From a virus: a stretch of DNA of 64,000 nucleotides. The translations under genes and the position numbers were made by a program. The stretch spans positions 110,396 to 174,395 of IMG/VR virus record IMGVR_UViG_3300005529_000024; one strand, 5' to 3'. Numbering within the stretch: the first letter of the stretch is position 1; each line of letters starts with the position of its first letter. Under the pieces are notes generated by a model. The model did no database searches, was not told where the DNA came from, and saw only the letters and a program-made list of their open reading frames with translations. Below, in pieces: positions 4,165-33,431 of this stretch.

Positions 4165-4256
4165 AGGCCCTTAGTTTAACGGCAAAATCCTGGACTTATA
4201 ATCCAGAAGCTCTAGATTGGAGCGCGATACGGGTTCGAATCCCGTAGGGCCTACCA
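4165..4256 (+). tRNA. tRNA, anticodon TAT (nominal Ile), long variable arm, encoded CCA
   Basis: Acceptor AGGCCCT/AGGGCCT + A-CCA; anticodon stem CTGGA/TCCAG with loop CTTATAA; V-arm GCTCTA-GAT-TGGAGC; T arm ACGGG-TTCGAAT-CCCGT. Confidence 0.92.
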
Positions 4257-21319: not shown

Positions 21320-21348
21320 TTGACAAATTTATAAGATCCTGCTATACT
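21320..21348 (+). promoter_or_regulatory. sigma70-type promoter for the Y RNA array
   Basis: TTGACA-N17-TATACT, 16 nt upstream of unit 1. Confidence 0.85.
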
Positions 21349-21364
21349 ATAAAAAGTTTAAGAT

Positions 21365-21428
21365 TTGGTGGGTCGGAGTCAATGGGTTATCTTGGATAAT
21401 ACCCCATGACGAAAAAATTATCCACCAA
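21365..21428 (+). ncRNA. Y RNA-like unit 1 (minimal)
   Basis: TTGGTGG/CCACCAA terminal stem, GGGTCG paired with TTATCC (bulged C), inner stem GTCAATGGG/CCCATGAC followed by TTATC. Confidence 0.8.
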
Positions 21429-21434
21429 TAGGTT

Positions 21435-21509
21435 AGATGGGTCGCTGTTGATGGGTTATCAAACATATTATATTGATTAATCTCCCATTGACGACAAAAT
21501 TATCCATCT
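21435..21509 (+). ncRNA. Y RNA-like unit 2 (minimal)
   Basis: AGATGG/CCATCT terminal stem, GGGTCG/TTATCC, inner stem GTTGATGGG/CCCATTGAC then TTATC. Confidence 0.8.
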
Positions 21510-21515
21510 TTAAAT

Positions 21516-21644
21516 ATGTGGGTCGATTTTCAGTTGGTTATCGAATTTGAATCGAGAGACATGGGTTCGAATCCCATACGCTAGTTATGCTGGCGTTAGC
21601 TTAGTGGATAGAGCACTTTCCGACTGATACTAACTTATCCACAT
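21516..21644 (+). ncRNA. yrlA: YrlA-type Y RNA with circularly permuted tRNA-like domain (unit 3)
   Basis: ATGTGG/CCACAT, GGGTCG/TTATCC, TCAGTTGG/CCGACTGA; inside: T arm ATGGG-TTCGAAT-CCCAT, loop-closed 7-bp acceptor ACGCTAG/CTGGCGT, TA, D arm GCTT-AGTGGATA-GAGC. Confidence 0.9.
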
Positions 21645-21658
21645 TTAATTTAACAATT

Positions 21659-21724
21659 TAGCGGGTCGCCATTAGTCGATTATCGCCTGGAAAAATATTT
21701 CGATTAATACATACTAATCCGCTA
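21659..21724 (+). ncRNA. Y RNA-like unit 4 (minimal)
   Basis: TAGCGG/CCGCTA terminal stem, GGGTCG/TAATCC, inner stem ATTAGTCGA/TCGATTAAT then TTATC. Confidence 0.75.
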
Positions 21725-21733
21725 TTAAAAATC

Positions 21734-21841: not shown

Positions 21842-21883
21842 AAAATGGCATGATGGCCTATAAAGCTGTCATGCCATTTTTCT
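21842..21883 (+). terminator. Intrinsic terminator closing the ncRNA cluster
   Basis: AAAATGGCATGATGGC/GCTGTCATGCCATTTT 16-bp stem plus T run. Confidence 0.85.
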
Positions 21884-28121: not shown

Positions 28122-28150
28122 TTGACAAACCAGATTCACCCTGGTATATT
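28122..28150 (+). promoter_or_regulatory. sigma70-type promoter
   Basis: TTGACA-N17-TATATT with extended TG. Confidence 0.65.
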
Positions 28151-29939: not shown

Positions 29940-30658
29940 AGAACTTTATAATCGCTTGTTTAATTTTGTTGGTTACTACAGCAACGAGTTTTGCTTCTCC
30001 AATTCCAGGTGTCACGGATGAGGCATTCGATCTCGCACGTAGCGGATTTGGCCGTACACTTAAAAATCTGGATGAGTTTACCAGTAATAAAGAAAAGATG
30101 GTAGATACTCCATTGATTCTAAATGATGTTAAACTTGAATTCAAAAGTGTGAATGTAGAGTTTATCAAAGGTGAAGTTGCTTATGAGTTTACGATTATAA
30201 ATGTCGTAACTTTAACGAAAGAATCAATGGAGGTCGTAGCTACAACTCGAACACCAGAATATGGCGCTATGCCATTTCCTTTTAGTTCATTGAAGAATAG
30301 GTTAACCACAATTATCTTCGTCTATAGCTCGCTCGATAAGAAGATACATTTGGCTGGTGTTTCTCCATCAAGAAATGAAGGTAGCCTGTAATGTTGGCAA
30401 CATTAACAGATGGTCCATTAGTTGACAAAAAGATTGTTTTAGGTAATACTGTATCAGATCCACCAGTTGTTCTTGAATTCATAGCTGAGAATCAAGAGCG
30501 TGATGGTCATGGGAATGTGAGGTCAATAGGCGAGATTATCACATTGATCTATAAATTCATGTCTTTGGATTCTGAGATAACAGAGGATGGAGTATTAAAA
30601 GTTTGCAAGTATAGTTTCGAGACTTATGGTAGGCACGATATTTCTTAAGATATTTTAT

Positions 30659-30682
30659 CCTACCATATTGGATTAAGCGTCT
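30659..30682 (+). promoter_or_regulatory. Putative phage-specific promoter CCTA-N14-GCGTCT for the Ro60-RNA ligase operon
   Basis: Exact-spacing copy ending 48 nt upstream of the Ro60 ATG. Confidence 0.7.
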
Positions 30683-30691
30683 TGCGGGTGA

Positions 30692-30712
30692 AAGTGGGTC
30701 AATTATCTACTT
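30692..30712 (+). promoter_or_regulatory. Y-RNA-mimic hairpin in Ro60 mRNA leader (putative autoregulatory operator)
   Basis: AAGTGGGT-CAATT-ATCTACTT hairpin containing GGGTC and TTATC as in the Y RNA units, 5 nt before the AAGGAG SD. Confidence 0.6.
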
Positions 30713-30730
30713 AATAAAAGGAGAGATCAA

Positions 30731-32317
30731 ATGGCGAAATACACAAAGCATTTCCAAACGAAGCAGACCAAACAAACTGAACCGATTCCCGGTAAGAACC
30801 AGGTGAAAAATAATGCTGGTGGTTATACGTTCAAGATTACCCCAGAGGCGCAGTTTAAGCGATTCTTGATTCTTGGTAGTGATGGTGGTAGTTATTATCA
30901 GACCGAGAATGACTTGACTGTTGAAAATGCTGAGAATGCAGTTGAGTTTATTAAGCAGGATGGCGTTATGGCAGTAAAGCTTATTGCTGAAATCTCAGAT
31001 CAGGGTAGAGCAGCTAAGAATTCACCGGCTATCTTTGCTCTGGCTCTTGTTTGTACATTCGGTAGCCCTGAAGCAAAAGCTTGCGCGTATAAGGCGATTC
31101 CTGTTGTGTGCCGTATCGGTACTCATATCTTTGAGTTTTGCCAGTACATTCAAGATCTTCGTGGGTGGAGCCGTGGGCTTAGAAAGGGTGTTGCTTCTTA
31201 CTTTGAGAAAAAGGTTGCTGATTCCAATCTGGCGCTTGACGTTATCAAGTATCGTCAGCGTGATGGTTGGACACATAAGGATGTTCTTCGTTTGTCTCAT
31301 CCTTCAATCAGCGGTAATGATGTCAACTCGGTTTTAAAGTGGGCTGTTGGTAAAGAGGTTACAGAGAAAAACGCGCTCATCAGTGCATTTGAACAGATTC
31401 AGAAGACGACCAATGTTAATGAGGCTGTTAAGCTGATTGAGGAGAATAACCTCCCTCGTGAAGCTGTTCCTACGGATCTGCTTAATTCTGCGGATATCTG
31501 GAATGCTTTGCTTGTTAAAATGCCGATGAAAGCCATGATCCGCAATCTTGGAAAAATGACTTCCATTAACCTTCTTAAGTCTAACTTTGGTGAACAGGAG
31601 AAGAGAGTTATTGCTTCTCTTACTAATGTAGAGGCTTTGAGCAAGGCACGTATCCATCCTCTGGATATCCTTGTTGCTCTTAAGATCTACAGTCAGGGTC
31701 ATAGTGAAAGAGGATCTCTCTCATGGCGTCCTGTTCCTGGTATTGTTGAAGCTTTGAATGAGGCTTTCTATCTTTCTTTCAAGAATGTAGCTCCACTTGG
31801 TAAGAACTTCCTTATCGGACTTGATGTCTCTGGGTCTATGTCTAGCCGTATTTCAGACAGCAATTCATTGACTTCACGTGAAGCAACTTCAGCTATTTCT
31901 CTGTTGCTGGCCCGGACTGAGAAGTCGGCAGAGGTGTTTGCTTTCTCTAACTCGTTCATGCCGTTGACTGTTCACAAGAATCTGAGCCTTGAGGGATTGA
32001 TGCGTAAGACAGAAAGTCTCCCATTCCAGGGTACTGATTGTGCTCTTCCAATGTTGCATGCTACCCGTAATAAGATTGACAACATTGATTGTTTCATCGT
32101 GTTAACCGATAGTGAAACGTGGGCTGGAAATATTCATCCTAGCCAAGCTTTACTTGATTATCGGAGACAGTTTAATCCGGAAGCCAAATTGATTGTTTTG
32201 GCAACTGTTCCTTCTGCTTTCACGATTGCTGATCCGACCGATGCAGGCTATTTGGATATCGCTGGATTCGATTCAAGCGTGTATTCGGTCATGCAAGAAT
32301 TCCTGAAAGGATGGTGA
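30731..32317 (+). CDS. rsr: Ro60/TROVE-domain ribonucleoprotein (Rsr) with vWA domain
   Basis: NNAGGY, RFLILGS, RGWSRGLRK, KYRQRDGWTHKDVLRLSHP, MIRNLGKM, vWA MIDAS DVSGSM, GTDCALPM, TDSETW. Confidence 0.95.
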   Translation: MAKYTKHFQTKQTKQTEPIPGKNQVKNNAGGYTFKITPEAQFKRFLILGSDGGSYYQTENDLTVENAENAVEFIKQDGVMAVKLIAEISDQGRAAKNSPAIFALALVCTFGSPEAKACAYKAIPVVCRIGTHIFEFCQYIQDLRGWSRGLRKGVASYFEKKVADSNLALDVIKYRQRDGWTHKDVLRLSHPSISGNDVNSVLKWAVGKEVTEKNALISAFEQIQKTTNVNEAVKLIEENNLPREAVPTDLLNSADIWNALLVKMPMKAMIRNLGKMTSINLLKSNFGEQEKRVIASLTNVEALSKARIHPLDILVALKIYSQGHSERGSLSWRPVPGIVEALNEAFYLSFKNVAPLGKNFLIGLDVSGSMSSRISDSNSLTSREATSAISLLLARTEKSAEVFAFSNSFMPLTVHKNLSLEGLMRKTESLPFQGTDCALPMLHATRNKIDNIDCFIVLTDSETWAGNIHPSQALLDYRRQFNPEAKLIVLATVPSAFTIADPTDAGYLDIAGFDSSVYSVMQEFLKGW

Positions 32318-32321
32318 TCAT

Positions 32322-33431
32322 ATGAGCACATTAAAAGTAGAGATCTGTAGAATTGATGGTGTGGAAAAGCATCCTAATGCCGATAGGCTGGATATTGTCA
32401 AGATTGCCGGTTGGCAATGTGTCACACAGAAAGATGCTTTTAAGGTAGGGGATTCCTGCGTCTACATACCGATTGACTCGATATTGCCCCTCGAAGTTGA
32501 GAGTAAGATCTTTGGTCCTGATTCTAAGATTAAGCTTGATAAATCTAGGGTCAGATCAATTAAACTTCGTGGTGCCATTTCACAGGGTATGGCTGTAAGA
32601 CCATCTACTCTCGGTATTCCTGATGATCAGGATGTTGGTACAGATGTTTCTGAGATTCTTGGCATTAAGAAATATGAACCGCCTACCAGGGAGGTGTCTC
32701 ATAACAGTCAGCTTAATCCTAAACCAAAGCGAAGCTGTAATCCTAATTTCAAGAAGTATACTGGTATCGAGAACTGGAAATGGTATCCAACACTTTTCGA
32801 TAGCACAGAAGAGGTCGTAGTTACAGAGAAGATTCATGGTACAAACTTCCGCTGTGGCTATATTCCTTACTGTGCAAATACTTGGTGGAAGAAGGTTCTG
32901 AAGTTTCTTCACCTTACACCTCAGTATGAGTTTGTGTATGGTAGCCACAATGTTCAGTTGCAGAATAAACTGCGCTATAAAGGCTACTACAGCAATAACG
33001 TGTATCTTAAAATCGCTAAGCAATATAACCTTGAGTCTGTTCTGAAGAACTTTCCTGGTTTTGTTGTATACGGGGAAATCTACGGTGATAGGATACAGAA
33101 GGGATATAATTACGGGTGTGGTACAGGAGAGCATAAGCTCGTTGTTTTTGATGTCATGCACGATGGCAGTTATCTAGACTTTCCTGTCTTTAGTGTTTTT
33201 TGTAATTTGAGACGGCTACCTATGGCCCCTGTTGTTTATCATGGCCCGTATGATGGCGATAAGATTCTGTCCCTTACCAAAGGCAATTCTGTTCTCTGTC
33301 CTGAGCAGAGGGTTCGTGAGGGAGTCGTTGTGAAACCATTAAAAGAACAGATAACATTTATGGGTAGAAAGATTTTAAAAGTCATCTCTGATGATTATCT
33401 GTTGAACAACGATAACACTGACTTTCATTAA
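32322..33431 (+). CDS. ATP-dependent RNA ligase (DRB0094/Rnl5-like) with N-terminal OB domain
   Basis: HPNADRL N-terminus, TEKIHGTN motif I, YGEIYG, FDV, REGVVVK, LKVIS. Confidence 0.9.
   Translation: MSTLKVEICRIDGVEKHPNADRLDIVKIAGWQCVTQKDAFKVGDSCVYIPIDSILPLEVESKIFGPDSKIKLDKSRVRSIKLRGAISQGMAVRPSTLGIPDDQDVGTDVSEILGIKKYEPPTREVSHNSQLNPKPKRSCNPNFKKYTGIENWKWYPTLFDSTEEVVVTEKIHGTNFRCGYIPYCANTWWKKVLKFLHLTPQYEFVYGSHNVQLQNKLRYKGYYSNNVYLKIAKQYNLESVLKNFPGFVVYGEIYGDRIQKGYNYGCGTGEHKLVVFDVMHDGSYLDFPVFSVFCNLRRLPMAPVVYHGPYDGDKILSLTKGNSVLCPEQRVREGVVVKPLKEQITFMGRKILKVISDDYLLNNDNTDFH

What the first reader, a model, noticed from the sequence alone, without database searches (positions are those of the whole stretch)
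30659..30733. Ro60 mRNA leader carries a miniature Y-RNA Ro60 site next to the ribosome-binding site
Seen: AAGTGGGTCAATTATCTACTT (30692-30712) forms an 8-bp hairpin that fuses the two conserved halves of the array units (TGGGTC and TTATC). It lies just after the putative promoter and 5 nt before the AAGGAG SD of rsr. Inference: Ro60 not bound to Y RNA binds its own leader and represses translation or alters mRNA stability, matching protein level to Y RNA supply, as ribosomal proteins do by rRNA mimicry. This also ties the distant array to this gene independently of synteny. I am not aware of this being described for Ro60, but could not search.
Basis: partly seen in the sequence, partly recalled or inferred. 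Interest (0 to 1): 0.85.

Follow-up and report, generated by a model that had tools for sequence, protein, structure and literature searches.

The report
Collapsed Y-RNA stem before phage Ro60
Just upstream of a phage's Ro60 gene sits a 21-base hairpin that is the leftover closing stem of a Y RNA, the small RNA that Ro60 binds; it could let Ro60 throttle its own synthesis, but here the site is degraded and binding is unproven.

Summary
The hairpin AAGTGGGT-CAATT-ATCTACTT (30692-30712) is real. It ends 5 nt before the AAGGAG of rsr (Ro60, 30731-32317). It joins the two strands of the closing stem of this phage's Y RNAs (array 21363-21728): 16 of 17 bases match unit A.

Its origin is fairly clear. 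In the nearest relatives I could fetch (Ro60 53-56% identical), a full Y RNA lies at exactly this place. One of them begins with the same AAGTGGGTC at almost the same distance from the SD. So this is a Y RNA that lost its inside.

- **Promoter:** the "putative promoter" is not supported. rsr probably lies in an operon that starts near 28122.
- **Function:** open. The hairpin has A where all Y RNAs have the G of the GNCG/CGAA Ro60 motif, and it has no upper helix. It scores 6.7 bits with a Y-RNA covariance model. No close relatives exist to test conservation.
- **Support for the idea in general:** other phage rsr leaders carry complete Ro-site-like hairpins abutting the SD (11 found, 0.22 expected).
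- **Prior reports:** this scan has noted such leader sites on other genomes. I found no paper on Ro60 autoregulation.

Odds: Y-derived about 0.8 overall; working Ro60 operator about 0.3.

The parts
30692..30712 (+). Mini Y stem hairpin. 5' arm AAGTGGGT (30692-30699), loop CAATT (30700-30704; C30700 corresponds to the bulged C of Y RNAs), 3' arm ATCTACTT (30705-30712).
   Evidence: Sequence; fold -5.0 kcal/mol, z -4.2; covariance model R1 6.7 bits; 16/17 match to the strands of unit A and 18/21 to those of L180 unit 3 (read).
30718..30723 (+). Shine-Dalgarno AAGGAG of rsr. It begins 5 nt after the hairpin and ends 7 nt before the ATG.
   Evidence: Sequence.
30731..32317 (+). rsr: Ro60 homologue of 528 aa (TROVE + Ro60 vWA).
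   Evidence: Pfam PF05731 5e-44 and PF25045 4e-55; thousands of homologues, the best 54-56% identical.
30649..30691 (+). Rest of the 82-nt intercistronic spacer. It holds two further Y-strand-like fragments, TTTTATCCTACC (30654-30665, like a 3' strand) and TTGCGGGTGAAAG (30682-30694, like the 5' strand TTGCGGGTCGA of L181 unit 1 minus the C). Both are uncertain. No promoter.
   Evidence: Sequence compared; promoter scans. Not statistically tested.
21363..21728 (+). Array of four Y RNAs: A 21363-21430, B 21433-21511, C 21513-21652 (YrlA-like, with a tRNA-like domain), D 21657-21726. Closing stems are xGGGTCG / (A/T)TATCCx.
   Evidence: Rfam YrlA 29 bits, below threshold; R1 58-73 bits for A, B and D, 19 bits for C; the closing stem covaries across 9 units of this clade.
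21320..21348 (+). Promoter of the Y array (TTGACA-17-TATACT, with TG).
21842..21880 (+). Intrinsic terminator after the array.
   Evidence: 16-bp stem followed by a T run.
28122..28150 (+). Nearest strong promoter-like site upstream of rsr (TTGACA-17-TATATT, with TG). Probable start of the operon that includes rsr.
   Evidence: No strong terminator lies between it and 30731. A weaker site lies at 30422-30450.
32322..33431 (+). RNA ligase gene, 4 nt after rsr. Probably co-translated context.
   Evidence: Pfam PF09414 and PF21189.

Best explanation
The hairpin is the collapsed closing stem of a Y RNA. In this phage lineage the ancestral layout was: Y RNA(s), a short U-rich spacer, the SD, then rsr. 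Here the working four-unit Y array sits 9 kb upstream under its own promoter and terminator. At the old place, only the two strands of the Ro60-binding stem of the rsr-proximal Y RNA remain. They are joined by a 5-nt loop after loss of about 40-50 inner nucleotides. The hairpin lies in an 82-nt spacer inside a polycistronic mRNA.

It keeps GGGUC of the Ro60-contacted strand. It has lost the invariant G that follows the bulged C, the upper helix and the whole effector domain, and one G-C pair has become G-U. I therefore read it as a relic that is at most a weak Ro60 site.

Shown: the sequence, the fold, the positional homology and the missing motif parts. Inferred: the deletion history and the low affinity.
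For: 1. L180 (Ro60 54% identical) has three full Y RNAs directly upstream of rsr. The last reads AAGTGGGTCGAAGG...ACTTATCCGCTT-TTTT-AAGGAG. The window reads AAGTGGGTC-AATTATCTACTT-AATAA-AAGGAG. The 5' strand is 9/9 identical, the 3' strand 9/12, and the spacer to the SD is 4 nt in L180 against 5 nt here.
2. L181 and L005 have the same layout: a full Y ends 18-28 nt before the start codon.
3. At least 30 of 82 non-redundant phage rsr loci have a full Y RNA ending 80 nt or less before the start codon.
4. There is a parallel case. L022 and L036 have 86% identical Ro60. L022 has a full Y (ATGGACCGGAG...CACTAGTCCAT) where L036 has only ATGGGC-CAATTA-GCCCAT.
5. The motif is unlikely here by chance: 5e-4 per 82 nt.
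6. Signs of decay: GUCA instead of GNCG, which is invariant in all 9 aligned units and conserved in more than 250 species (PMC4201824). There is no upper stem. A C-to-U change makes a G-U pair. The U-run seen after the stem in relatives is lost. R1 gives only 6.7 bits.
Against: A deletion relic should decay, yet all 8 pairs are intact. In L036 the mini stem differs from L022 by a compensatory A-U to G-C change, which hints at selection on such stems. Ro-site-like hairpins at the rsr SD recur in other phages, so a site here may be kept for a reason. Ro60 mainly reads the 5' strand (PMC4201824), and 6 of the 7 bases of GGGUCGA are present. Over the whole window the covariance-model score is not significant, so descent from a Y RNA rests on position and motif rather than on a formal homology score.
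Confidence: 0.5

Rival explanations
1. Working feedback operator. Ro60 that is not occupied by Y RNA binds the mini stem and, from 5 nt upstream of the SD, blocks 30S binding or alters mRNA decay. Ro60 synthesis would then track Y RNA supply. The hairpin would still be Y-derived, but kept by selection.
For: The stem is adjacent to the SD. The 8-bp stem is intact and keeps the GGGUC core. Complete Ro-site-like hairpins (CUU-stem-loop-stem-C-GAA) lie directly before or over the rsr SD in 11 of 87 leaders against 0.22 expected. These fall in about 4 independent lineages, and the stems covary. L036 has a second mini stem with a compensatory pair. In most phage loci a Ro60 site, in the form of a full Y RNA, lies 15-40 nt from the start codon. 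Earlier AI notes of this scan propose the same on other genomes; I did not check those.
Against: It lacks the invariant G of GNCG/CGAA, and it lacks the stem-bulge-stem that served as the minimal binder for a phage Ro60 (PMC12135203). The hairpin is weak (-5 kcal/mol). It is not the same design as the recurrent permuted sites. With a loose definition, mini hairpins of this orientation are not enriched in rsr leaders: 4 seen against 3.9 expected. No close relatives are available. No paper reporting Ro60 autoregulation was found.
Confidence: 0.3
2. Chance hairpin. An AT-rich spacer happens to contain GGGTC and TTATC in a self-complementary context, with no link to Y RNAs.
For: Genome-wide the motif occurs as often as expected: 2 sites outside the array against 2.2 expected. 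The other site lies inside a 747-aa ORF. The R1 score is not significant over the window. The motif was defined after it had been seen.
Against: The location-specific probability is 5e-4, or about 2e-5 with the stem. The 9-mer is identical, and the spacing to the SD nearly the same, as in the rsr-proximal Y RNA of L180. The leader-only E-value is 0.04.
Confidence: 0.1
3. A Y-derived stem kept for a role that does not depend on Ro60. Examples are a protective or processing hairpin that defines the 5' end or stability of the rsr-ligase mRNA, or a remnant of a stem-plus-U-run attenuator that once separated the Y RNAs from rsr.
For: In L180, L181 and L005 the closing stem of the proximal Y RNA is followed by a U-run, which looks like a leaky terminator or processing point. 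M. smegmatis Y RNAs are processed from one precursor upstream of rsr (PMC4201824).
Against: The U-run is lost here (UUAAUAAAA). The hairpin is weak. No terminator call is made here. There is no RNA-end data.
Confidence: 0.1

Closest known systems
Ro60-binding closing stem of bacterial and phage Y RNAs (YrlA/YrlB, Yrn1; motif GNCGAA(N0-1)G or 'CGAA'; Chen et al. 2014 PMC4201824; Thermus phage phiLo Yrl1/2, PMC12135203)
   Same: Same two strands as the phage's own Y RNAs (GTGGGTC / AATTATC-AC). Same strand as rsr and directly upstream of it. Same G-C, G-U, U-A pairs before the C.
   Different: No G after the C, no upper helix and no internal loop or tRNA-like domain. It is 21 nt long instead of 65-140, and it is part of an mRNA spacer. 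By these features it is not a Y RNA.
Autogenous translational operators that mimic the protein's main RNA ligand (E. coli ribosomal proteins S8, L1, S15, L20; ThrRS-thrS operator; phage MS2 coat protein-replicase hairpin, T4 RegA/gp32). From general knowledge.
   Same: A small copy of the ligand's binding site placed at the RBS of the protein's own gene. The expected logic is that free protein represses.
   Different: No binding or repression data exist for any Ro60. The copy here is incomplete and lies beside the SD rather than over it.
Similar leader sites were noted earlier by this scan (e1-2694084, e1-2641530, e1-3984127).
   Same: A Y-stem-like element in the rsr leader, next to the SD.
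   Different: Those run 3' strand, loop, 5' strand. They keep the full G-N-C-G-A-A and 1-2 pairs beyond the bulged C, and the motif abuts or overlaps the SD. The window's element has the normal strand order, its loop falls where the upper stem should be, and it lacks the G.

Membership tests
Y RNA / Ro60-binding module | 5'-strand motif GNCGAA(N0-1)G ('CGAA'), which is contacted by Ro60 | tested here: not met
   The leader has GTCAAT (30698-30703). The G after the C is invariant in all 9 aligned units of this clade and in the published motif (PMC4201824).
Y RNA / Ro60-binding module | Closing helix formed by the 5' and 3' ends, ending in G-C/G-U/U-A before a bulged C | tested here: met
   8 bp, AAGUGGGU/AUCUACUU, followed by C30700. 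The equivalent stems of the Y units covary.
Y RNA / Ro60-binding module | Stem-bulge-stem: a helix continues beyond the bulged C | tested here: not met
   C30700 opens a 5-nt hairpin loop, so no upper pairs are possible.
Y RNA / Ro60-binding module | Large internal loop or effector (often tRNA-like) domain; length 65-140 nt | tested here: not met
   21 nt. R1 aligns it only through a local end that skips 45 model positions.
Y RNA / Ro60-binding module | Encoded within 4 kb of rsr on the same strand | tested here: met
   The hairpin ends 18 nt before the rsr ATG, on the same strand.
Y RNA / Ro60-binding module | Bound by Ro60 | not testable with these tools
   Needs EMSA or CLIP. The complex predictor takes no RNA.
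Autogenous translational operator by ligand mimicry | Site overlaps or abuts the RBS of the regulator's own gene | tested here: met
   The stem ends 5 nt before AAGGAG.
Autogenous translational operator by ligand mimicry | Site reproduces the determinants of the primary ligand | tested here: inconclusive
   6 of 7 bases of GGGUCGA and 16 of 17 of unit A's stem strands are present. The invariant G and the upper helix are missing.
Autogenous translational operator by ligand mimicry | Conserved in orthologous leaders | tested here: inconclusive
   No relative is above 56% identity. One analogous mini stem was found (L036). Different Ro-site hairpins are enriched in other phages. A loose mini-hairpin class is not enriched.
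Autogenous translational operator by ligand mimicry | Protein-dependent repression | not testable with these tools
   Needs a reporter fusion or toeprinting.

The most novel reading that the evidence does not exclude
Ro60 controls its own translation by binding a Y-RNA-stem copy at the RBS of rsr. This feedback would be widespread: full Y RNAs, permuted CGAA hairpins or mini stems lie next to the SD in many phage and bacterial rsr genes. On this reading, the window's mini stem is the kept minimal operator after the Y array moved away.
Probability: 0.3. Interest if true: 0.75.

Novelty: new variant of a known kind. Interest (0 to 1): 0.5.

Why it matters
How Ro60 levels are matched to Y RNA levels is not known in bacteria or phages. 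I found no paper on Ro60 autoregulation in the held library. A Ro-site copy at the rsr RBS would give a simple feedback mechanism, testable with an EMSA and a reporter fusion.

This window adds an evolutionary snapshot. The Y array has moved 9 kb away, and at the old position only the Ro60-binding stem survives. The window by itself is a weak example. The stronger candidates for the same idea are the complete CGAA hairpins abutting the SD in other phages.

Tried and rejected
- **Promoter in 30659-30691:** none by scan or by eye. Rejected.
- **Terminator reading of the hairpin:** there is no U-run and no terminator call. Rejected.
- **Repeated regulatory motif in this phage:** the 17-mer has no second copy, even with up to 3 mismatches. 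The other GGGTC..TTATC site, at window 1901, lies inside a 747-aa ORF.
- **Near-identical phages:** none in the phage collection by DNA search. The best protein relatives are 54-56% identical. P0001 and P0004 contigs have no DNA on hand.
- **IMG/VR pattern TGGGYCAATTAKCY..GGAG:** 93 hits, of which only the L036 contig lies next to a TROVE gene. The pattern was derived from those two sequences, so this is not independent evidence.
- **L061 as a third mini stem:** the proposed hairpin is not the MFE. Dropped.
- **Loose class of 6-bp hairpins with G[CT]C at the loop:** not enriched in rsr leaders, 4 against 3.9 expected.
- **Reviews:** two Ro60 reviews (PMC10870794, PMC6542706) are not held.
- **Failed script:** one script gave no answer and was rerun at smaller size.

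Full report
**Setting.** The window is bases 110396-174395 of a 174-kb IMG/VR virus record. It is AT-rich, and the genes in this region run on the + strand. ORF 30731-32317 is a Ro60 homologue (TROVE 5e-44, Ro60 vWA 4e-55). An RNA ligase gene follows it after 4 nt. Nine kilobases upstream, four Y-RNA-like units lie between a consensus promoter (21320-21348) and a terminator (21842-21880), at 21363-21728. Unit C gives a sub-threshold YrlA match (29 bits). A covariance model built from nine short units of this clade (R1) finds units A, B and D at 58-73 bits and unit C at 19 bits. The closing stems covary across the nine units. Their conserved parts are xGGGTCG on the 5' side and (A/T)TATCCx on the 3' side, plus an inner GGTTATC.

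**The observation.** AAGTGGGTCAATTATCTACTT is at 30692-30712. It folds into 8 pairs, two of them G-U, with the loop CAATT, at -5.0 kcal/mol; 1 of 200 shuffles does as well. AAGGAG follows after 5 nt, and the ATG is at 30731. The hairpin equals GTGGGTC plus AATTATC(C>T)AC, which are the two strands of unit A's closing stem, at 16 of 17 bases, with the inside missing.
- GGGTC-N0-6-TTATC is expected 5e-4 times per 82 nt, about 2e-5 with the full stem.
- Genome-wide the motif is no commoner than chance: 2 sites outside the array against 2.2 expected. The other site lies inside a long ORF.
- R1 gives the hairpin 6.7 bits. That is E = 0.04 if only the leader is searched and E > 10 over the window.
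- So the case for a link to Y RNAs rests on where the hairpin is, not on a formal homology score.

**No promoter here.** This phage uses very clear promoters (TTGACA-16/17-TG-TATACT) at 21320, 21968, 23227, 23369, 26134, 26901 and 28122, all on the + strand. None lies in 30649-30730, and no good terminator lies between 28150 and 30731. rsr is therefore probably read from 28122, or from a weaker site at 30422. The hairpin sits in an 82-nt intercistronic spacer. It would be in the mRNA either way.

**Relatives.** No relative exceeds 56% Ro60 identity, so the leader cannot be aligned across species. The layout, however, can be compared.
- In L180 (54% identical), three full Y RNAs lie directly before rsr. 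The last is AAGTGGGTCGAAGG...GGGTTATCTTGGATAAT...ACTTATCCGCTT-TTTT-AAGGAG. Its 5' strand is 9/9 identical to 30692-30700 and its 3' strand 9/12. The spacer to the SD is 4 nt against 5 nt in the window. Its inner hairpin is that of window unit A.
- L181 and L005 show the same layout.
- Among 82 non-redundant phage rsr loci, at least 30 have a full Y RNA ending 80 nt or less before the start codon by strict criteria, and more by eye.
- The window's hairpin is thus the positional counterpart of the closing stem of the rsr-proximal Y RNA, with about 40-50 inner bases gone.
- A parallel exists. L022 and L036 have Ro60 86% identical and nearly identical upstream DNA. L022 has a full Y RNA where L036 has only ATGGGC-CAATTA-GCCCAT (-8.8 kcal/mol). 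The two stems differ by a compensatory A-U to G-C change.

**Does it still bind Ro60?** The published recognition motif is GNCGAA(N0-1)G on the 5' strand, and Ro60 mainly reads that strand (PMC4201824). For a Thermus phage Ro60, a stem-bulge-stem mimic carrying CGAA bound at 16 nM (PMC12135203). The window's Y units keep GNCG in every case. The leader has GUCA. The C opens the loop, so there is no upper helix, and one G-C pair has become G-U. The whole leader is no more structured than shuffles, and the SD is free in the MFE. This looks like a degraded site. Against simple decay, all eight pairs survive and 6 of the 7 core bases are present.

**The general idea.** While scanning leaders I found a different, more complete element. 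It reads CUU-stem-loop-stem-C-GAA, that is, the Y 3' strand, a loop, then the 5' strand with an intact G-N-C-G-A-A. It lies immediately before or over the rsr SD (L030, L034, L042, L058, L059, L066, L047, L009, L010, L027; L072 is similar).
- With a fixed definition there are 11 such sites in 87 leaders against 0.22 expected from the rest of the same loci. One of the 11 is a tRNA-like T arm.
- They fall in about four independent lineages, and the stems covary. They are the MFE in L047, L066 and L072.
- Several of these loci have no recognisable Y RNA within 4 kb.
- This makes feedback by Ro60 on its own RBS a reasonable hypothesis for phage rsr genes in general.
- Earlier AI notes of this scan reached the same idea on other genomes. 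I did not check those genomes.
- I found no paper describing it.
- The window's element is not of this design. A loose class of normal-order mini hairpins is not enriched in leaders: 4 seen against 3.9 expected.

**Verdict.**
- Origin from a Y RNA: about 0.8 overall, the sum of the relic reading and the two readings in which a Y-derived stem still has a role.
- Relic with at most weak Ro60 affinity: 0.5.
- Working feedback operator: 0.3.
- Chance: 0.1.
- Another RNA role: 0.1.

Binding and reporter assays would settle it.

Noticed in passing
L030:3419-3443, L034:3426-3450, L042:3921-3945, L066:3962-3986, L047:732-754, L072:3960-3986, L009:3973-3994, L027:3975-3999: Other phage rsr leaders carry a permuted, complete Ro-site-like hairpin (CUU-stem-loop-stem-C-GAA) that abuts or overlaps the SD. 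There are 11 in 87 leaders against 0.22 expected, and the stems covary. Several of these loci have no canonical Y RNA within 4 kb. These are better candidates for Ro60 autoregulation than the window's element.
   Followed up: partly
L183-L262 (for example L185:2440-2460), about 25-30 nt before the rsr SD: Rsr leaders labelled mostly Verrucomicrobia share a hairpin GTGCCG-AGAGTTGG-CGGCAC just after the last Y RNA. Its arms covary (GCGTCG/CGACGC, ATGCCG/CGGCAT and others) and it holds a GNCG(A/G)(A/G) motif. Its loop GAGUUGG is complementary to CCAACUU in the 3' strand of the Y RNA upstream.
   Followed up: no
window 30654-30665 and 30682-30694: The same spacer holds TTTTATCCTACC, which is like a Y 3' strand, and TTGCGGGTGAAAG, which is like the 5' strand TTGCGGGTCGA of L181 unit 1 minus the C. 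These may be further debris of an old Y array. Not tested statistically.
   Followed up: partly
window 21320, 21968, 23227, 23369, 26134, 26901, 28122 (+ strand): Seven near-consensus promoters (TTGACA, 16-18 nt, TATACT, TATAAT, TATATT or TAAAAT; six with an upstream TG). They divide this region into short + strand transcription units.
   Followed up: no
window 4165-4256: A tRNA-Ile (anticodon TAT) of 92 nt with a 19-nt insert at the variable-arm position (Rfam 62.8 bits). This is unusual for an isoleucine tRNA.
   Followed up: no
window 21364-21510: Units A and B together give a weak match (30.8 bits, E 0.026) to Rfam RF01656, a nematode small-RNA family. From general knowledge these stem-bulge RNAs are regarded as Y RNA homologues.
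   Followed up: no
L180:9986-9996, L181:7370-7382, L005:1603-1625: In the closest relatives, the closing stem of the rsr-proximal Y RNA is followed by a U-run and then the SD. This may act as a leaky terminator or processing point that sets the Y-to-rsr ratio. The U-run is lost in the window.
   Followed up: no
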